DNA from: Mobula hypostoma
Taxonomy: Eukaryota
Direction of reading: 5' to 3'
Length of the DNA stretch: 64,000 nucleotides
Assembly (NCBI RefSeq): GCF_963921235.1
Contig: NC_086097.1
Span: 89,530,001 to 89,594,000 of the forward strand
Shown: piece after piece, positions 4,411 through 60,190 of the stretch
How the letters are laid out: every line of letters starts with the position of its first letter
How positions within the stretch are numbered: the stretch's first letter is position 1
Program-made: the position numbers and the translations under genes
Notes under the pieces: model-generated
Told to the model about the DNA's origin: nothing
Database searches by the model: none
The model's input: the letters and a program-made list of their open reading frames with translations, nothing else

Positions 4411-4520
4411 CTACGTACAGCAGTTGAATTAGAATTTGACCATTTTCAAAGGATGAATGGCAGTCCAGTTTGAAAGCAAAATTCTGCAGGTGCTGGAAAT
4501 CTGAGATTAAAGTGTAGGAA

Positions 4521-4649
4521 TGCCTGACGAAGGGTCTCTGCCCAAAACGTTGACTGTGCCTCTTCCTATAGATGCTGCCTGGCCTGCTGCGTTCACCAGC
4601 AATTTTTATGTGTGTTGCTTGAAATCTCAGCATCTGCAGATTTCCTCAC
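4521..4649 (+). mobile_element. PLE terminal-repeat (pLTR) unit with degenerate hammerhead motif, nested in an older inverted pLTR-like relic (~4471-4735)
   Basis: 7-bp TSD GTAGGAA (4514-4520 / 4650-4656). Begins tgcCTGACGAagggtctctgcccAAAAcgttgac. Matches 40266-40390. Confidence 0.8.
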
Positions 4650-4924
4650 GTAGGAACTACTTATCTGGTCAGGCAGTATCTGCAATGTGTAGAGAGAAAC
4701 ACTGAATATTACAGCTCACTGACATCTTCAGACCTCTAGGCGAGTTGATGGAACAATTGGCAGATCAGATAAATGATGGATCATTTAAAAAAAGGATCTG
4801 GAAAGTATATGAAATTATATATTTGAGACTATTTCTAGTTCAATTGTAGTAGGCTAGATGGCCTTCTTATCTGCTGTGATTTCACTTTTAGCTTCACGTG
4901 TTCTCCTTTGTCCCTTATGAACTG

Positions 4925-21662: not shown

Positions 21663-22240
21663 CAAGGTGAGTTCTAAGGTATCGGAAAAGCCTGAAAGAG
21701 CTTGCAAGGGGGTTACACTTAGCGTAAAACTAGACATAATTAAGCGTTTTGATCGTGGTGAATGAAGTAAGGACAAAGTGAATTTGGCTTGTGGAAGTTG
21801 ACGAAGATGATGTTGAAGAGCTTTTGGCATCTCATGACCACGAACTGATAGATGAAGAGCTGATGCAATTGGAAGAGGAAAGGATAACAATTGAAACTGA
21901 ATGCAGTAGCGAACGGACTGAAAGTGAAGTCGTCCAGGAACTGAACATGAAGCAACTGTGTGAGATTTTTGCTGCAGTGATAAAGTACGACTTTAATTTT
22001 GAAAGGGTACGTCGGTTTAGGGCATATTTGCAGGATGGTTTGAGTGCTTACAAAGAACTGTATGATCTAAAAATGCGCGAGGCTAAGCAGTCAAGCAAGC
22101 CTTCCGCATCAGCCACAATAGACGATGAACCTCCACCTTCGACATCGAGGCAGGCAGACATAGAAGAAGATGACCTGCCTGCCCTGATTGACGATGAGAT
22201 GACACCCCAGTGTCCCACCATCCCAATCCCCGGGCCGCCG

Positions 22241-22537
22241 ACTGATACCGATCCGCGAAGAATGCAGGGGTACAGCGGTAGCTAGGACGCACCCAGCACA
22301 TCTTTAAGAAAAAATGCCGAAGTAAACAAGCTAATTAATTAGGTGCCACCTGATACGTAAGTGTTGGCCCAGATCAGAGGCGATTGCCGATTGTGTCGCC
22401 TCTGATCTGGGTCGACATTTATGTGCCTGGTGGCACCTAATTAATTAGCTTCTTTGTTTCGGCTTTTTTCTTAAAGATGTGCTGGGTGTGTCCCGGCTAC
22501 CGCTGTACCCCTGCATTCTTCGCGGATCGGTATCAGT
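22241..22537. repeat. Long inverted repeat (fold-back), ~142 bp arms, 12 nt loop
   Basis: The outer 42 bp (actgataccgatccgcgaagaatgcaggggtacagcggtagc) are perfectly complementary to 22496-22537. Loop 22384-22395. Confidence 0.95.
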
Positions 22538-30095: not shown

Positions 30096-31092
30096 AGCCA
30101 GTTCAATATGTTCCTCAACTTATTAGTGTTTTGCGTTCTTGGAAATTATTTTGATGAGCTAAATTTTGTGACTAGTAAAAGATGAAATGCAGTGTGGTAC
30201 ACTGTTTATTATGGTGGAAAACTATTTTGTAAATCAAAGGCACAAACCCTAAAGTGTTAATGGAATAAGAAAATGTAAAAAAAAGCATGCTGGTAAATTG
30301 AGGAACTCGGGTGATTGATTTTCATAATTCCTTGACAACCTATATGACTAATGTTATAGCATACATAATAATAGAACAATTACTTCCTTGCACAGGATCT
30401 AAGGTGCAGATTCATCACAAACTTTCTGCAGATGTTGCAGTGTAATTGAAAATGTTCCTTCATTTCATCTGGGAGGCAAGGTGGCTGAATTGGTGGAGAT
30501 TCTTCCTGGCTATCTAGCCAGCCAACTTCTGACTGTCTGTGTCAATATCTAGGACTTGTTTCCACTTTTGTGACTGCATTACACAGGGATGGAAAAAGAT
30601 CTTGTCTTATTGTAGCTTTGGTTTTCTGTTGTGACACTGATTTGAGCACAGGCTGCCAAGTGACATTTCCTTTATGGCTGCCTGGGTCAATTGTATGTGA
30701 CGGTGACACAAAATTAACATCCCTGGCTATTGCCAAGTTCCAAATGACAAAATGCAAATAAACTGCAAAATGTGCTCTGACCAAGGAATCATTCTATGTG
30801 GTGGTATGATAATTATACTGAGGAAGCAGAGCAAGACAGGAGTAAATGAGAGACTCTCAGGCAGAATGAATGGTAAGTGGCACAGGCTAACTACTCCAAA
30901 AAGTACAAAATCAATTATATACGATCCTATCCCATACATTGTTGAATACTCTCAGTCTCTAACTGAATGAACCCGTTTTTGAACACAGAACATAGAGCAT
31001 AGGAAAAGGTAATTTTGGCCTACAGTGTCAGTGCTGACCACAATGCCAAATTAAACGAAATCTCTTCTCCCTGCACACAAACTATATCCCTC

Positions 31093-31301
31093 ACAACCAC
31101 AAAGTAATCTGCAGATGCTGGGGTCAAAGCAACCCTCACAACACGCTGGAGGAACTCAGCAGGTTGGGCAGCATCTGTGGAAAAAGATCGGTCGACATTT
31201 CGGGGGGGTGACCTGACGAAGGGTTCCGGCCCGAAACGTCGACCGATCTTTTTCCACGGATGCTGCCCGACCTGCTGAGTTCCTCCAGCGTGTTGTGAGT
31301 G
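31093..31301. mobile_element. 209 bp inverted pLTR pair (PLE-derived) with 14-bp TSD
   Basis: TSD AAACTATATCCCTC (31079-92 / 31302-15). 70-bp arms at 31135-31204 and 31230-31299 with 3 mismatches, all at CpG. Confidence 0.9.
31206..31245 (+). ncRNA. Minimal type I hammerhead ribozyme motif (PLE-type)
   Basis: CUGACGA (31213-19), an extra A, stem II GGG-uuccgg-CCC, GAAA, loopless palindromic stem III (ACGU), cleavage triplet GUC (31238-40). Stem I is imperfect in this copy. Confidence 0.7.
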
Positions 31302-31530
31302 AAACTATATCCCTCCATTGTCTGCATATTCGTGTGTCTATCTAACAAGATCTTAAACCCACTATCATAACTGTTTCCATTACTTCCCATGGCAGCTCGT
31401 TCTAGGCACCTACCACTCTCTGTCCTGCTTATCTCCTTTACACTTTCCCCCACTCACCTTAAAAGCGTGTCTTCCTAGTCCGTGTCCTTTCGATCCTGGG
31501 AAACAAATTCTGACGGTCTATTCTATCTGC

Positions 31531-38600: not shown

Positions 38601-39636
38601 ATTAGCTGTTGTCCAATCCTTAGATACTCAACTGTGGCCAAGGATAATTTAAGTACCTCTGCTAGGGCCCTTACAATTTTTGCATTTGCCTCCCACAGGG
38701 TGTGAGGCAATACCTTGTCAGGCCCTGGGATTTATCCACCCTAATTTGCCTCAAGATAGCAAATACCTCCTCCTCTGTAATCTGTATAGAGTCCATGACC
38801 ATGCTGCTGCTTTGCCTCACTTCTATAGACACTGGTCCATCTTCCAAGAAAATACAGATGCAACAAATCCATTTAAGATTTCTCTCATCTCTTTTGGCTC
38901 CATGCATAGGTTGCCATTTGGATCTTCAAGAGGACCAATTTTGTAGCTTGCAATCCTTTTGCTCTCAACATATCTGTAGAATCCCTCAGGATTCTCCTTC
39001 ACCTTGTCTACTAGGGCAACCTTATGCCTTCTTTTAGCCCTCCTGATGTATTTCTTAAATGTTCTCTTGCATTTCTTATACTCTATAAGCACCTCATTTG
39101 TCCCTATCTGCCTGTACCTGATTGCATATCCTTTTTTCTCTTAACCAGGGCCTCAATATCTCTTGAAAACCAAATTCCCCTTAGCCTATTGTCTTTACTT
39201 CTTATTCTGACAGGCAAGTATAAGCTTTGTACTCTCAAAATTTCCCTTTTGAAGACCTCCCACTTACCAAGTATACCTTTGCCAGATAATAGCATATCCC
39301 AATCCATACCTGCCAGATTCTTTCTGATATCATTTAAAAATTGACCTTTCTCCTATTTAGAATCTCACGCTGTGGACCAGACCTATCTTTTTGCATGTTT
39401 ACTTTGAAATTAATGGCATAATGATCACAAGATGTGAAGTGTTCCCTTAAATTCTGCCATCTGCCCTGTCCACATCCTAAAGGCAGATTAAGTATTGCAC
39501 ACTCTCTCATTGGGACTTCTACGTACTGATTAAGGAAACTTTCCTGAACACATTTGACAAACTCATCCAATCTAGTCCTTTTACAGCATGGGATAGAGTT
39601 CAATATATGGAAGGATAAAATCACCTACTATAACAA

Positions 39637-40395
39637 GTGAGGCGACACTTCACCTGTGAGTCGGCTGGGGTGATATACTGCATCCGGTGCTCCTGATGTG
39701 GCCTTCTATATATTGGCGAGACCCGACGCAGACTGGGAGACCGCTTTGCTGAACACCTACGCTCTGTCCGCCAGGGAAAGCAGGATCTCCCAATAGCCAC
39801 ACATTTTAATTCCACATCCCATTCCCATTCTGATATGTCTATCCACGGTCTCCTCTACTGTAAAGATGAAGCCACACTCAGGTTGGAGGAACAACACCTT
39901 ATATTCCGTCTGGGTAGTCTCCAACCTGATGGCATGAACATCGACTTCTCTAACTTCCGCTAATGCCCCTCCTCCCCCTCGTACCCCATCCGTTATTTAT
40001 TTATATATACACATTCTTTCTCTCTCTCTCCTTTTTCTCCCTCTGTTCCTCTGACTATACCCCTTGCCCATCCTCTGGGTTTTTTTCCCCCTCCCCCTTT
40101 TCCTTCTCTCTGGGCCTCCTGTCCCATGATCCTCTCATATCCCCTTTGCCAACCACCTGTCCAGCTCTTGGCTCCATCCCTCCCCCTCCTGTCTCCTCCT
40201 ATCATTTTGGATCTCCCCTCCCCCTCCCACTTTCAAATCTCTTACTAACTTTTCCTTCAGTTAGTCCTGACGAAGGGTCTTGACCCAAAATGTCAACTGT
40301 ACCTCTTCCTAGAGATGCTGCCTGGCCTGCTGTGTTCACCAGCAACTTTGATGTGTGTTGCTTGAATTTCCAGCATCTGCAGAATTCCTCGTGTT
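39637..40395 (+). mobile_element. 5'-truncated PLE: GIY-YIG domain + pyrimidine tract + pLTR with decayed hammerhead
   Basis: FTCESAGVIYCIRCS*CGLLYIGETRRRLGDRFAEHLRSVR...RLEEQHLIFRLGSLQPDGMNIDFSNFR*. Near-perfect TSD tactataacaa / tattataacaa (39626-36 / 40396-406). Confidence 0.92.
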
Positions 40396-41930
40396 TATTA
40401 TAACAACCTTATGTTTTTTGCACCAGTCTGTGATCCCTCTACAAATTTGTTCCACTAAATCCTGCAGACTGTTTAGTGTTCTATTATATAGCTCTTTTAA
40501 CGTGTTCATATCTTTCTTATTCCTCAGTTCCACCCATTCGCCTCACTAGACAAGTTCTCCAGTCTGTCCTGACAGAGTACTGTTGTGACATTTGCCCTGA
40601 GTAGTCACACCACTCCTCTCCCTACAGTCTCTCCCGTTTTGTTGCGCCTAAAACAATGGAACCCTACAATGTTGAGCTGCTGGTCCTGCCCCTCCTGCAA
40701 CCAAGTCTCACTAATGGCTACAATATCATAATTCCACTTGTAGATCCATGCTCCGTGCTAATTTGTCTTTTCTACGATACTTCTTGCATTGAAATAAATG
40801 CAGCTAATGAGATTATTTGCACCATGCTCAACCTTTTGTTTAAGACTTTGTCTGAGGTCTTAACAATATTTGTCTCCACACCCTCTCCACTAACTGTTCT
40901 GACACTCTGGTTCCCATCCCTCTCCAGTTCAGGTGCAAACTGTCTCTTCTGTACAAGTCACACCTTTCCGGGAAGAGAGTCCAATGACTCAATAACCTGA
41001 CACCCTCCCTTCTACACCAGCTACCAAACCATGTGTTAAACTGTATGATCTTCCTATTTTTGGCCTCACTAGGATGTGAGATGGGTAGCAATTCTGAGAT
41101 CACAACCCAGGAAGTCCTGTCCTTTAACTTAGCACCTAACTCCCTGAACTCATTTTGCAGAACCTCGTCACTCATCCTACCCATATCATTGTTACCTACA
41201 TGGACCATGACTTCTGGCTGTTCACCTGAGGTATCCCGGACCCTGGCACCTGGGAGGCAACATACCATCCGGGAATCTCATTCGCACCCACAGAACCTTC
41301 TGTCCACTCCCCTAACTAATGATTCCACCATCAGCACAGGCGTACCTCTTCTCCCACATTCTCTTCTAAGTCTCTAAGGCAGGCTCAGTGCTAGAGAGCC
41401 GAACACTGTGACTCTCCTCTGTTAGGTCATCCCTCTCTGACAGTATCCATAGTAATATACTTGTTGTTGAGGGGGATGGCTCCAGGGGTACTCTGCACTG
41501 GCTCCTTAACCCCTTTCCCCTTCCTGACTGTCACCTAGTCTCTTGTGTCCTGCACACTGGGTGTAATTACTTCTCTCAGCCTTTAGAGAGACCCAGATTT
41601 CATCCATTTCCAGCTCTAACTCTTTAACGCAGAGTGTTAGAAACTGCAGCCGGACACACTTTTCACAGACATAGTCATTGGGGACACTGGGACACTTCCC
41701 ACATCCTGCAAAGGGAGCATTTAACTATCTTGCCTGCCGTCCCTACTGTTCTAACTGAACAAACATAAAGAAGGAAAACAATAGATAAACTGGGGGGAGA
41801 AAAACTACCTACAGCTTTTCTACCTTCTTTCACTCAAGTCTCTCCTTGCTGAAGCCTTGAAGAGATAAAGCTTCAAGTAACCACTCTAACACTGTCCACT
41901 CCAGCGATGGCTGCTCTGCTTGCTCCTGCC

Positions 41931-50409: not shown

Positions 50410-50730
50410 AAAGATCTTCCTCCTTGGTCACTTTAGGTTCCCTGGTCCTAAATTCCTCATTTTCACCAGGGTTATCCGGTCCCTATGCTATTCTATCCCC
50501 CAGCAGAAAGGCCTTAAAGCAGTCCACTTCTTTCTAGACAACAGACCTAACAAATTCCCTTCCACCACCACACTCCACCATCTGGCAGAACTAGTCCTCA
50601 CTCTCAATAATTTCTCTTTTAAGGTCTCATCAGCTGTTTATTCCTCCCCATGGATGCTGCCTAACCTGCTGAGTTCTTCCAGTTATTTTTGTCTGTTGCT
50701 CTGGATTTCCAGCAGAATCTCCCATGTTTA
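50410..50730 (+). mobile_element. PLE RT fragment joined to a pLTR relic
   Basis: SIPQQKGLKAVHFFLDNRPNKFPSTTTLHHLAELVLTLNNFSF, then ggatgctgcctaacctgctgagttcttccag. Confidence 0.75.
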
Positions 50731-51422: not shown

Positions 51423-54400
51423 CCAAGATGGTGTCATGCTAGTGACAGCTGTTTCAGTAGCTCTTGTGTTTTTACTGCTTTTCATATCATTTTATGTTAT
51501 TTTTATGTTTTCTTGTGTGTCATTCTGAATTATTTTGTGCTTAGACCATTTGTGATGGCTATCTTGTATTTGAAGTGAAGGTTGAGTGAAGATTGTGTTC
51601 AATTTCAGAGACAAGCTGATCGAGCTATGCAAGCCGACGCTACTGCCCAGAGTGTCACCCGAGATCCCACGGGAGCATAGGAGGTGACACCGAAGCTGCA
51701 GGGCCAGAGCGAAGGTTAAGTCCAAGAGGAGGACATATAAACCTTCTACCCCCACCATCAGCACGGGAAACATGAGGTCCTTGGGAAATAAGGTGGACGA
51801 GATTGGTGCACTGATTAAGACGAAGAGGGAATACCAGGAGTGCACTGTTCTGTGCTTAACTGAGACCTGGCTACTCATGTACTTTCCGGACCATTGTGCC
51901 TCCATACCCGGCTTCAAGACTGTCTAAGCAGACAGATACGTTACATTGAGTGGTAAGAAGATGGGAGGAGGGATTGTAGTGTTCGTGAACAAAATGTGGT
52001 GTAATCCTGGACATGTTACTGTAAAGGAACATTTATGTAGCCCTGACATCGAGCTTTTAGGCATTGGGATACAATCATATTATTTGCCTCAGGAATTCTC
52101 AGCTGCTGTTTTAGTTGTTGTTTGCACTCAGCCGTCGGCTGACGTGAATGTAGCGTGCAATGTTATTCTTTCAACCATTGCTAGAATACAAACTCAATAT
52201 CCCAATGCTTTTGTGCCTGTTAATGGGGATTTTAATCATGTTTCTCTCAAGGCAACAGTACTAACTTTTCATCAATATGTCAGCTGCCCCACACGGGACA
52301 ACAGAACACTGGACCTTCTGTATGGAAATGTGAAAGATGCATACACTGCCACTGCCCTTCCCCTATTTGGCAGATCTGATCACAACCCGGTCCTGCCAGC
52401 ACCCAGGTACGTGCCTCTAGTCCAGCGGCAGCCTGTGTCAACAAGGATTGTAAGGAGGTGGACTCTGGATGTTCATGAGGCACTGTAGGAATGCTTGGAG
52501 AGGACAGACTGGAATGTGTTATGTGAGCCACACAGGAGGACATTAACAAGATGACTGATTGTATCACAGAAAAAATGCTGAAGGAACTTAGTAGGCCAGG
52601 CAGCATCTATGGAAAATAGTTGATGTTTTGTGCTGAGACCCTTCGTCAAGCCTGCAGAGTTCCTCCAATATTTTGTGTGTGTTGCTTGGATTTCCAGCAT
52701 CTGCAGGTTTTCTCTTGTTTGGGAGACTACGTCAAATTCAGGACTGTACGCTGCTTCCCCAACAACAAGCCCTGGATCATCAGTGACCTGAAAGAACTTC
52801 TGAATAACAAGAAGGAAGCCTTGAGGTCTGGGATAGATTAGAGGCGAGTTCAGGGTGAACTGAGGGGAAAGCTGAGGGAGTGCAAAGAATCCTACAAGAG
52901 GAAGCTGGAGTACAAGCTCCAGCAGAATAGCAGAAGGGACGTGTGGTCGGGCATGAAGCTTCAAGGTTGGGGAAAGGAAGATTGAGGGCTGCCTGCAGAG
53001 GGCCAGCGAATTGAACTTGTTTTTCAACAGGTTCAGCATGAGACCTCCTGCTGTCCCCCTCCTCCACTTGCCCAACCTGACACCCTGCCTGTCCCCGAAG
53101 CCTTCTCCCTCCACCCCTCTGGTGAGTGCTTGTGTTCCAAACCCCCCCAGCTTTGGAGTATCCTGCCTCCATGGGGATGACCACCCTCCCCTGACAGTGA
53201 CTGCAGGTCAGGTTAAGAGACAGCTGGAGAGACTACATCGAGGCAAGGCTACTGGACCAGACACTATCAGCCCCAGGGTACTGAAGGGCAATCCAGCTGT
53301 CTGGTATTTTGAAGCACCTTTACAATCTGAGTCTAAGTCAGGAAAAGATACTGGTGTTATGGAAGACTTCCTGGTTGGTTCCTGTACCCACGAAGGCAAC
53401 TCCATCTGAAGTTAGTGACTACAGACCAATTGCCCCCACATCTCACATGATGGAAGTGCTAGAGAGGTTGGTCCTGACTTACCTTAGACCACAGGTGAGA
53501 TCTTCATTGGACCCTCTACAGTTTGCCTCCCAACCTCATGTGGGAGTGGATGATGCCGTCATCTCCCTGTTGCAGAGAGCTCACTCCCACCTGGATGATG
53601 CTGGTGGCATTGTGAGAATCATACTTCTTGGTTTCTCTAGTGCCTTCAATACAATCCAGCCACTTCTTCTCAGCGAGAAGCTGCAAAAAATGAGCGTAGA
53701 CAAATCCACTATCTCCTGGATTACTGACTACCTGACAGATAGACCCCAGTTTGTGTGGCTGGGTAGTTCTCTGTCTGAGATGGTGCTGAGTGACACTGGA
53801 GCCCCACAAGGGACTGTCATGTCTCCGTTTCTGTTCACACGGTACACCTCAGACTTTCAGTACAAATCTGAGTTTTGTCACTTGCAGAAGTTCTCTGGTG
53901 ACTTTGTGGTGGTTGGATGTATCAGAGATGGGCAGGAGTCAGAGTTCAGAGGACTGGTGGACAAGTTTGTGGAGTGGTGCAGGAGGAATCACCTGCTCTT
54001 GAATGTGGCCAAAACCAGGAAGATGGTGATTGATTTTAAGAGGAAGAGGACAGTGACGAATCCTGTATACATTCTGGGGGAAGAAGTTGTGGTGGAGGAG
54101 GAGGGTGTTCACCTCAACAACAGACTTGACTGGAAGACCAACACCAAGGCTGTTTACATGAAGGGGATGAGCAGACTCTATTTTCTAAGAAAGCTGAGAC
54201 TCTTCAACGTGTGCAGCAGGTTGTTGAAGATCTTTTTCCAGTCTGTGTAGCAAGTACAGTCTTTGTGGCTTTATGCTGGGGGAGCAGCCAGTGCTGATGA
54301 TGCAAAAAAACTAAATAAACTCATCAAAGAGGCTGGATCCATCCTTGGCTACAACCTGGACTTTTTGAGTTAGTGGTGGAGAGGAGGTTACTGAACAAAC

Positions 54401-57825: not shown

Positions 57826-58100
57826 GACAAACACAAAAAACGCTGGAGGAACTCTGGAGGGAAATAAACCTTCAACTTTTCAGGCCGAGACCCTTCGTTA
57901 GGACTAGCAAGGAAGGGGAGAGAAACCAGAATAAGAAGGAGGTGGAGGGGAAGGAGTGCAAGCTGGCAGGGGATAGGTGAGACCAGGTGAGGCGGAAGGT
58001 GGGTGGGGTGAAAAGCTCTAAGGTGATAGGTGGAAGAGGCAAAGGGCTGAAAAAGAAGGAATCTGATAGGGGGAGGACAGTGGACCATGGAATAAAGGGA
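57826..58100 (-). mobile_element. PLE 3' UTR/pLTR fragment with mutated hammerhead
   Basis: Minus strand tagtcCTAACGAagggtctcggcctGAAAagttga. The purine tract resembles window positions 1-90. Confidence 0.75.
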
Positions 58101-58621
58101 AACATTAGAAACATCCAATTTCTAAATGGTCCATGAACCCATGAACCATTATTCCTTATTCCTCCTTCGGACTATTTATCTATTGATCTATTTAGTGTAA
58201 CACAGTAGGTTTTAATGTCTTTCACTGTACTGCTGCCACAAAACAACAAATTTCATGACATATGTCAGACATAATAAACCTGATTCTGATGTCACAAGAT
58301 AGCTTTTTCTTTTCTCTTTCAGTCTTTATTGTTTGCAGTCAATAACTTGTATCTGTCATTGCATACAATCATTGTCACAGAGCAATGGGATTTCCACATG
58401 GATCTCCCAGAGTCACAGCTGGCTAAAAACATTTAAATAAATAAAATGGCATAGACTCCATTGATACTTACATAAATAATATTTGGCGACACAGAGGAAC
58501 TGTAGAAGATATAGAAGCAAAATGTGCTGATTTCTCCTAGTGTCCTGAATGTTGCAGTAAAATGGAACTCTCACTCTCTGATGCTCTTCATGTCTGAGTC
58601 TAGAAGGCAAAGGAGAGAGGC

Positions 58622-58760
58622 TCACACAAAAAAAGTGCTGGTGGTCAGGCAGCAACTATGGAGGGGAATAAACAGTCGCTGTTTCAGGCCGAGACTTGCT
58701 TATTCCCCTCCATAGATGCTGCCTGACCTGCTGAGTTGTTCTAGTATTTTGTGTGTGTTA
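58622..58760. mobile_element. Degenerate inverted pLTR pair
   Basis: cacacaaaa...ggtcaggcagcaactatggaggggaataa pairs with ttattcccctccatagatgctgcctgacc...ttttgtgtg. Confidence 0.7.
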
Positions 58761-59357: not shown

Positions 59358-60190
59358 TCAAAGATTCAAAGTACATTTAATATCAAAGTGTGTGTACAGA
59401 ATATACCTGTGAGATTCGCCCTCCTGCAGGCAGCCACAAAACGAAGCAACACCATGGGACCTGTTCAAGAGAACATCAAACAACAATGCACGAAAAAAGA
59501 ACAAATTGCACAAGTGGCAAATAGCACATCGAAACATCAAACCGGGGGTCCAGTAGTATTCATTTTAGTTCAGCTCAGCACTGCTCCACTAGCCCACTCT
59601 TCAATGTCTCAATTGGAGAGAAGCAATGGAGTCGATCATGGGCTTGCACCCTTGACACTTCAATCAGAGAGAAGCAATGGAGTCGATCATGGGCTTGCAC
59701 CCTTGACACCTCAATCGGAGAGAAGCAACGGAGTTCACCATGGGTTTGCATCCTCGACATCTCAATCGGAGAGAAGCAATGGAGCTGATCATGGGCTTGC
59801 ACCCTTGACACTTCAATCAGAGAGAAGCAACGGAGTTCACCATGGGCTTGTACCCTCAACACCTCAATTGGAGAGAAGCAATGGAGTTCACCATGGGCTT
59901 TCACCTTCGGCGCCTCAATCAGAGAGATGCAAAGGAGTCGATCTTGGGCTTTCACCGTCAACACCTTAATCAAAGAGAAGCAATGGAGTCGATCATGTGC
60001 TTGTACCCTTGACACCTCAATCAGAGAGAAGCAATGGAGTTGATCATGGGCTTGCACCCTTGACACTTCAATCAGAGAGAAACAATGTTCACCATGGGCT
60101 TGCACCCTGTCTCCAGGCCTCCAGGCCACACACTCCCCTCCAAACCTCTCCAAACTCGCTCAGAGATAGCAAAGTGCCATATCGATGAAG
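59358..60190 (-). mobile_element. Non-autonomous retroposon with shared 3' tail, carrying a VNTR
   Basis: Tail tcaaagattcaaagtacatttaatatcaaag on the + strand, homologous to ~17215-17410. Confidence 0.6.
59607..60108. repeat. 51-bp minisatellite, ~10 copies
   Basis: Unit starts at 59609, 59660, 59711 ... 60068 (exact 51-nt period). Consensus ~tcaatcagagagaagcaatggagtcgatcatgggcttgcacccttgacacc. Confidence 0.97.

What the first reader, a model, noticed from the sequence alone, without database searches (positions are those of the whole stretch)
31093..31301. Intact minimal hammerhead ribozyme inside a 209-bp TSD-flanked hairpin element
Seen: a 14-bp TSD, two 70-bp inverted arms differing only by 3 CpG transitions, and a complete hammerhead core (CUGACGA-A-GGG/CCC-GAAA-C-GUC). 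It is the only intact core among the related copies here. Known: Penelope-like elements carry minimal type I hammerheads in their pLTRs; a loopless palindromic helix III implies cleavage as a dimer. Inference: this is a protein-free, ribozyme-bearing mini-retroelement (retrozyme-like) mobilised in trans by a PLE. The antisense arm covers the 3' half of the ribozyme from stem II onward, so hairpin and ribozyme folds should be mutually exclusive. Stem I is weak in this copy.
Basis: partly seen in the sequence, partly recalled or inferred. Interest (0 to 1): 0.75.

Follow-up and report, generated by a model that had tools for sequence, protein, structure and literature searches.

The report
Twin-primed stub of a Penelope retrotransposon
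This 209-base DNA hairpin is a real but ordinary stub of a very abundant Penelope-like jumping gene, not a self-copying ribozyme element; it was likely built at insertion by two separately started DNA copies joined head to head, which would explain a puzzling feature of this element class.

Summary
The 14-bp duplication, 70-bp arms (three CpG transitions) and minimal hammerhead core are all there. The 'protein-free retrozyme' reading is not supported. Both arms are the 3' end of a Neptune/Nematis-type Penelope-like element (RT plus GIY-YIG), with 10,978 exact arm-end matches in this genome. In 90 insertions taken in positional order, arm lengths run from about 40 bp to 2 kb. 37 of 38 two-ended pairs have one tail-bearing and one tail-less end, and junctions vary from copy to copy. 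Here the arms (+21..+130 and +3..+91) are not nested, so neither can be a fold-back copy of the other. Two primings at the two cut target strands are the best explanation. Arm 5' ends pile up at the hammerhead's front edge (24 vs 3.8 expected), not at its cut site, so the template was uncleaved; an RNA 5' end there is likely but unproven. This copy has lost most of stem I and is probably inactive. The architecture is published; twin priming was not found in my searches. The scan noted the same thing before, on other DNA of this genome and in other genomes.

The parts
31079..31092 (.). left target-site duplication, 14 bp
   Evidence: exact repeat; single in uninterrupted relatives of the flanking repeat
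31095..31204 (-). long arm: parent positions +21..+130 (0 = A of AGTCC at the front of the hammerhead), antisense; inferred cDNA from the distal start site
   Evidence: 91% to a parent copy over 110 nt
31095..31134 (-). PLE 'tail', about 40 nt, present on this arm only
   Evidence: tail continues into leader and ORF in near-full-length copies L268, L270, L272
31205..31211 (.). 7-nt junction filler GGGGTGA, matching neither arm
   Evidence: gap 7; not seen in the other 57 short hairpins listed there
31212..31301 (+). short arm: parent positions +3..+91, sense; inferred cDNA from the proximal start site
   Evidence: 98% to a parent copy over 90 nt
31213..31240 (+). minimal type I hammerhead core: CUGACGA-A, stem II 31221-31232, GAAA, CG palindrome (helix III), UC; predicted cut after 31240; stem I reduced to C31212-G31241
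   Evidence: sequence; pattern as in PMC4209133; no Rfam hit
31135..31299 (.). 70-bp hairpin stem formed by the overlap of the two arms, 25-nt loop
31302..31315 (.). right target-site duplication, 14 bp

Best explanation
The element is a head-to-head pair of 5'-truncated 3' ends of a Penelope-like retrotransposon, likely made once, at insertion, by twin priming on the parent's uncleaved RNA. Shown: both arms are parent sequence, one ends at the tail (+130) and one about 40 nt earlier (+91), they are not nested, and a 14-bp duplication flanks them. Inferred: the RT-endonuclease cuts both target strands about 14 nt apart; each 3' end primes reverse transcription at one of the two internal start sites that bracket the tail; both cDNAs end near the front of the hammerhead and are joined by microhomology or filler. 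Less certain (about 0.5): they end there because the RNA begins there, i.e. priming was on the 5' copy of the repeat and RT ran off the end. The hammerhead is a passenger and is predicted to be inactive in this copy.
For: Parent: 24 or more of 30 exact-core loci continue upstream into shared sequence that encodes RT motifs, a CX2-5CxxC linker and GIY-YIG. L092 has the same ends with 2 kb of ORF inside. Positional sample of 90 insertions: 44 have an inverted partner; of the 38 where both arms reach the 3' end, 37 are long+short (p 1.4e-10 against 0.5). TSD >=9 bp in 32 of 38 pairs, mode 13-15, vs 2 of 38 in a shifted control. 55 of 58 short hairpins are long+short by automated call, and the tail-less arm reaches further 5' in 41, the tail arm in 14, tie in 3; this is the opposite of what fold-back of one cDNA needs. 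Recurrent junctions sit on 1-3 nt overlaps, and three classes occur in both polarities. A 5-A/5-T run variant is shared by both arms in 9 of the 10 copies that have it on the left arm and in none of the other 20 (read by eye). 5' ends: 24 of 128 arms at -3..+9 vs 3.8 expected, none at +30..+34 around the cut site. In vitro, an anole PLE extends both target strands, starts RT at two sites flanking the tail, uses uncleaved RNA and needs RNA beyond the start sites (PMC11167929, main text read).
Against: No intermediate was observed; the mechanism is read from finished insertions. No untemplated-G (cap) signature: G precedes 7 of 28 solo copies starting at +1 and 7 of 17 truncated copies starting at 0. 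The edge is a ramp, not a wall: about 34 truncated copies still start at -1 under a narrower filter. Same-template evidence from substitutions is mixed: within vs between pairs 0.090 vs 0.102 at all sites (1 of 2000 shuffles) but no difference at non-CpG sites (706 of 2000); 14 vs 7.8 shared alleles in the short set (84 of 5000). Arm-to-arm gene conversion could also give sharing. One junction class has 8 members by eye, all of one polarity. 46 of 90 insertions show no partner and only 18 of 45 of these have a TSD >=9 bp, so not every insertion follows this path. No transcript-end data could be had.
Confidence: 0.75

Rival explanations
1. A non-autonomous, retrozyme-like hairpin family that is transcribed and re-inserted in trans by the PLE.
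For: Constant outer ends in the 30 best matches. Some junctions recur, the largest class 8 of 58 with one polarity. 18 of 90 insertions are short two-arm hairpins. pLTR sequences can act in trans in rotifers (PMC3846280, passages), and retrozymes derive from pLTRs (bioRxiv 2026.07.22.740005, main text).
Against: 42 junction classes in 58; continuous length series up to 2 kb; same-junction copies share 0.27 derived alleles per pair vs 0.28 for all pairs (2682 of 5000 shuffles, low power if a donor were unmutated). No tandem array. Copies end at the RT start sites and lack the downstream leader. A -157 kcal/mol hairpin blocks the ribozyme. Only 19 of 58 short hairpins keep core plus stem I.
Confidence: 0.07
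2. Self-priming: one cDNA (or an antisense template) folds back at a small palindrome in the hammerhead and copies itself; the endonuclease then trims one arm, leaving the tail on one side.
For: Proposed in PMC3846280 (self-priming on an antisense template) and PMC8557442 (tail from EN-mediated resolution), passages read. Junctions use short complementary words of the hammerhead. It also explains arms sharing variants.
Against: Fold-back of a sense-templated cDNA needs the tail arm to reach furthest 5'; in this copy and in 41 of 58 the tail-less arm does. Both end sites also occur on solo copies (26 long, 20 short of 46), as expected of start sites. Some partners are little more than the tail (L075, L116, L151).
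Confidence: 0.13
3. Twin priming is right, but the pile-up at the hammerhead's front edge is an RT barrier (protein bound on the ribozyme, or the long pyrimidine tract just upstream) or a splice-related end, not the transcript start.
For: No cap-G excess. AG|TCC follows a long pyrimidine tract like a 3' splice site, and the fly Penelope intron ends at helix I (PMC4209133). About 4,420 matches run through the edge.
Against: One candidate spliced junction gave 0 matches. Many solo copies have the TSD within 0-4 nt of +1 with no exon between. A TTTATAG box near -30 and a CAGT initiator-like word sit at the edge (consensus recalled). The stop rate just upstream (-20..-4) is low, 2 events.
Confidence: 0.3

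Closest known systems
Insertion unit of endonuclease-positive Penelope-like elements: inverted 5'-truncated copy, one-sided 30-40 bp tail, TSD (PMC8557442 Fig. 2 legend and passages; PMC3846280 passages)
   Same: Head-to-head inverted arms, tail on one end, TSD, hammerhead in the pLTR, parent with RT, CX2-5CxxC linker and C-terminal GIY-YIG.
   Different: This is the shortest end of the series, with no ORF sequence. Those papers ascribe the inversion to self-priming and the tail to endonuclease resolution; the non-nested long+short arms here point to two primings.
Anolis Poseidon PAc in vitro (PMC11167929, main text read; supplements not seen)
   Same: Two RT start sites bracketing the tail, both strands cut and extended, uncleaved RNA as template, no ends at the hammerhead cut site.
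   Different: Different clade. The main text does not link the two start sites to inverted pairs, or report a pile-up of 5' ends at the hammerhead edge.
Minimal hammerheads of metazoan PLEs (PMC4209133, results and discussion read)
   Same: Core, extra nucleotide after position 9, G-C base of stem II, loopless palindromic helix III; motifs found close together on opposite strands and ascribed to truncated PLEs.
   Different: Stem II is 4 bp here; stem I is truncated to one pair in this copy.
Metazoan non-LTR retrozymes (PMC7229834 passages; bioRxiv 2026.07.22.740005 main text)
   Same: Small, non-coding, PLE-related, type I hammerhead, long TSD.
   Different: Retrozymes are direct tandem repeats with a hammerhead in each unit, giving circular RNAs. 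This is an inverted monomer with one blocked, truncated motif.
L1 twin priming (recalled; only search listings seen)
   Same: Both cut strands prime, giving an inversion with microhomology at the junction.
   Different: In L1 the two cDNAs cover adjacent parts of the RNA; here they overlap by about 70 nt and start at two fixed sites.

Membership tests
EN+ Penelope-like element, Neptune/Nematis type (parent) | single ORF with RT and C-terminal GIY-YIG endonuclease | tested here: met
   RT motifs and GIY-YIG-like end in parent-family copies; GIY-YIG E 4e-4, just under the Pfam cut-off, in a sister-family copy; 603 homologues with RT/GIY-YIG domains; frames of 1,039 aa or more in 11 of 12 sister-family loci. 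No complete frame in 20 loci of the element's own family.
EN+ Penelope-like element, Neptune/Nematis type (parent) | CX2-5CxxC linker between RT and EN | tested here: met
   CKRKCYTC in own family, CKRNKCYTC in sister family; criterion from PMC8557442
EN+ Penelope-like element, Neptune/Nematis type (parent) | RT phylogeny separating Neptune from Nematis | not tested
EN+ Penelope-like element, Neptune/Nematis type (parent) | partial-tandem pLTRs with hammerhead, inverted truncated copy, one-sided tail, TSD | tested here: met
Minimal type I hammerhead | conserved core, stem II, palindromic helix III | tested here: met
   the 29-nt front is identical between the two families except three stem II/loop changes that keep pairing
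Minimal type I hammerhead | stem I of 4-5 bp | tested here: not met
   one pair in this copy; three pairs (GUC/GAC) in the parent family, four in the sister family
Minimal type I hammerhead | self-cleavage as dimer or with protein | not testable with these tools
   needs an in vitro assay; genomic arms show no ends at the cut site
Non-LTR retrozyme | direct tandem repeats with a hammerhead in each unit | tested here: not met
   single inverted monomer; no tandem array here
Non-LTR retrozyme | self-replicating unit of constant structure | tested here: not met
   variable junctions and lengths; no shared mutations within junction classes
Non-LTR retrozyme | unit-length linear and circular RNA | tested here: inconclusive
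   only assembled contigs of uncertain RNA status were available

The most novel reading that the evidence does not exclude
These hairpins are integrated 'strong-stop' products of Penelope: a dimeric RT-endonuclease primes both cut strands at two start sites in the 5' copy of the repeat, both cDNAs run to the transcript start at the hammerhead's front edge, and are joined. The hammerhead-plus-tail segment would act like a retroviral R region, and the inverted repeat, the one-sided tail and the TSD would all come from one step.
Probability: 0.45. Interest if true: 0.62.

Novelty: new member of a known kind. Interest (0 to 1): 0.36.

Why it matters
As an element it is ordinary: one of thousands of dead stubs, best annotated as a PLE end rather than as a MITE, miRNA hairpin or retrozyme. 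Its value is as a record of mechanism. How PLEs form their inverted repeats and one-sided tails is called unresolved in PMC8557442. The long+short rule, the non-nested arms and the pile-up at the hammerhead edge give exact predictions for an in vitro system that already exists, and this genome holds a sister family with open 1,043-codon frames at 96-100% identity that could supply the enzyme.

Tried and rejected
Rfam: no hammerhead match; sub-threshold miRNA hits (mir-1791 44 bits vs 75; mir-3192 29 vs 80) reflect the hairpin. Ribozyme-cut template: rejected, no arm starts at +30..+34 and both arms here span the cut site. Cap-G test: no excess. One candidate spliced junction: 0 matches; other donors not tested. 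Left-arm CpA excess in the 30 best matches is query bias; it is not evident in the pattern-based list. The constrained fold was mis-indexed and is replaced. RNA: 24 runs listed, none holding half the words; 4 were laid, all contigs with RNA status guessed; 791-2,111 records per run lie on the element's end but show no start, end or strand. Literature searches for twin priming or strong-stop in PLEs and for shark or ray PLE hairpins listed no paper on it; only listings were seen, and the library lacks most subscription papers. Supplements of PMC11167929 (Fig. S2) were not opened and may bear on novelty. Rows dropped: one search merged 100 arm matches into 90 insertions; 6 of 44 pairs were left out of the long+short count because the partner does not reach the 3' end; 1 solo at a locus edge was left out of the TSD count. 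Partners shorter than about 30 nt are missed, so some 'solos' are pairs (e.g. L080). In one search the automated end call mislabels this copy as long+long, and mutations inflate the 42 junction classes; L331 and L332 are one duplicated locus.

Full report
Positions such as +21 count along the parent element, with 0 at the A of AGTCC just before the hammerhead core.

Observation. The sequence shows an exact 14-bp duplication at 31079-31092 and 31302-31315 and 70-nt arms at 31135-31204 and 31230-31299. The arms differ at three CpG transitions, all on the left. The RNA hairpin is far beyond chance (z -19.7). The hammerhead core runs 31213-31240 with a 4-bp stem II and a loopless CG palindrome as helix III. 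Rfam does not detect it; the pattern matches the minimal hammerhead described for metazoan PLEs (PMC4209133, results and discussion read). Within the window it is the only intact core; the copies at 4520 and 40263 have AAAA for GAAA. The target lies in an older repeat whose three weak relatives carry the site once.

What it belongs to. The genome G000 (3.48 Gb) gave 40 scored matches covering nearly the whole element, from 1,378 candidates. In the 30 fetched, outer ends are constant but the loop differs from copy to copy. An exact 40-nt core with stem I occurs 344 times, and most of the 30 sampled continue upstream into a shared pyrimidine-rich 3' UTR. Further upstream lie RT motifs, a CKRKCYTC linker and a GIY-YIG-like end. 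A sister-family frame hits GIY-YIG weakly and has 603 homologues, the nearest named ones from rays and sharks. The linker places the parent in the Neptune/Nematis type (PMC8557442 passages). Locus L092 has the same inverted tail-bearing arm with 2 kb of ORF inside. In three near-full-length copies the tail runs on into a 35-nt leader and an ATG, so the hammerhead and tail are both the start and the end of the tandem unit. None of 20 own-family loci has a complete frame. The sister family has frames of 1,039 aa or more in 11 of 12 loci, at 96-100% identity.

Family anatomy. A 25-nt arm-end pattern has 10,978 matches. The first 100, from the first 20 Mb of C1, resolve into 90 insertions. 44 have an inverted partner. 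Arm 5' ends range from about -1,900 to +96. Where both arms reach the 3' end, 37 of 38 pair a tail-bearing end (about +130) with a tail-less end (about +90); 32 of 38 have a TSD of 9 bp or more against 2 in a shifted control. Solo copies end at either site (26 long, 20 short). All 58 short-loop hairpins found by a tight pattern were examined: 55 long+short by automated call, 42 junction classes, recurrent classes on 1-3 nt overlaps, three of them in both polarities. Same-junction copies share no more derived alleles than random pairs, though the test is weak if a donor was unmutated, and one class has 8 members of one polarity.

Mechanism. In this copy the long arm covers +21..+130 and the short arm +3..+91, with 7 nt of filler. 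Neither interval contains the other, so one cDNA folding back cannot give both. The tail-less arm reaches further 5' in 41 of 58 short hairpins, and in 19 of 25 hairpins with one long and one short end whose arm starts at +1, across both families. An anole PLE in vitro cuts and extends both strands, starts RT at two sites bracketing the tail, uses uncleaved RNA and needs RNA beyond those sites (PMC11167929, main text read). I infer twin priming: each cut strand primes at one site and the two cDNAs are joined. Evidence that both arms come from one template is strong for a run-length variant (9 of 10, by eye) and mixed for substitutions.

Why so short. 24 of 128 arms start at -3..+9 against 3.8 expected; none starts at +30..+34, so the ribozyme cut does not set the end. 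Genome-wide, 262 matches start at +1 (28 of 30 sampled truncated), 264 at 0 (17 of 30), 35 at -1 (29 of 30), and 4,420 run through. The filters differ; my rough correction with assumed base frequencies gives about 435 at +1 against 50-100 at -1. The sister family has 3,149 matches starting at +1 (27 of 30 sampled truncated). A TTTATAG box near -30 and a CAGT word at the edge resemble TATA and initiator (consensus recalled; a similar pair is described in rotifer pLTRs, PMC3846280 passages). That suggests run-off from the transcript start after priming in the 5' copy. Against it, there is no cap-G excess, the edge is a ramp, and fly Penelope has its intron end, not its start, at helix I (PMC4209133; PMC2377424 passages). 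A barrier remains a live rival. RNA runs held only contigs and could not decide.

The ribozyme. Truncation at +3 leaves one pair of stem I. Freeing the core from the hairpin costs about 22 kcal/mol. Published minimal hammerheads do not cut as monomers (PMC4209133), and the anole one needs its protein (PMC11167929). This copy is predicted to be inactive; the parent motif is probably functional in full-length tandem RNA.

Comparison and novelty. The architecture is the published insertion unit of endonuclease-bearing PLEs (PMC8557442 and PMC3846280, passages). It fails the defining tests for a non-LTR retrozyme (PMC7229834 passages; bioRxiv 2026.07.22.740005 main text). Twin priming in PLEs did not appear in my searches. 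I reached this reading; earlier scan notes read afterwards say much the same for other loci of this genome and other genomes. They are unchecked AI notes and add no independent support. One of them reports stops at the cut site in another genome, which I do not see here.

Verdict. Real, a new member of a known kind, not a replicating mini-element. Interest 0.36, carried by the testable mechanism rather than by the element.

Noticed in passing
L222-L233 (e.g. G000:C5:59183500-59190000; L228 tandem): A young sister PLE family with 3.5-kb units, 1,043-codon stop-to-stop frames and 96-100% identity; L228 holds a head-to-tail array with three hammerheads; L225 has the long+short inverted layout at full length.
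   Followed up: partly
window 4480-4650, 40263-40397, 50642-50703, 52577-52720, 57830-57956, 58610-58759: Six older relatives of the hammerhead-tail end (71-85% identity), some hairpin-shaped, all with broken or missing cores; PLE ORF fragments at 161-1068, 39634-39980 and 50437-50620.
   Followed up: partly
parent positions -270..+2 (e.g. L094 6580-6853): The 3' UTR is a long pyrimidine tract ending in CAG|TCC, like a strong splice acceptor. Host gene models among the homologues (P0001, P0005) contain PLE ORF sequence, suggesting exonisation. One spliced junction tested gave 0 matches.
   Followed up: partly
L075, L116, L151, L337, L339: Partners that are little more than the 40-nt tail, as if the distal cDNA stopped on reaching the proximal start site.
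   Followed up: no
parent positions -36..-23: A smaller cluster of 9 arm 5' ends around the TTTATAG box, about twice the background rate; unexplained.
   Followed up: no
window 31155-31278: Sub-threshold Rfam match to mir-1791 (44 bits, E 4.6e-8) with visible sequence likeness in the stem; possibly chance for a long hairpin, possibly a miRNA derived from an old PLE hairpin. A paper search listed two unrelated papers.
   Followed up: partly
window 59608-60108: Tandem array of 9.9 copies of a 51-bp unit (17 codons), open on both strands.
   Followed up: no
window 21782-22285 (+): Acidic 167-aa frame that recalls the C-terminal part of Tigger/pogo-type transposases (recalled, not searched).
   Followed up: no
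L331 and L332 (G000:C157 and C184): Two loci identical over 481 bases including flanks: a duplicated segment or haplotig, not two insertions.
   Followed up: yes
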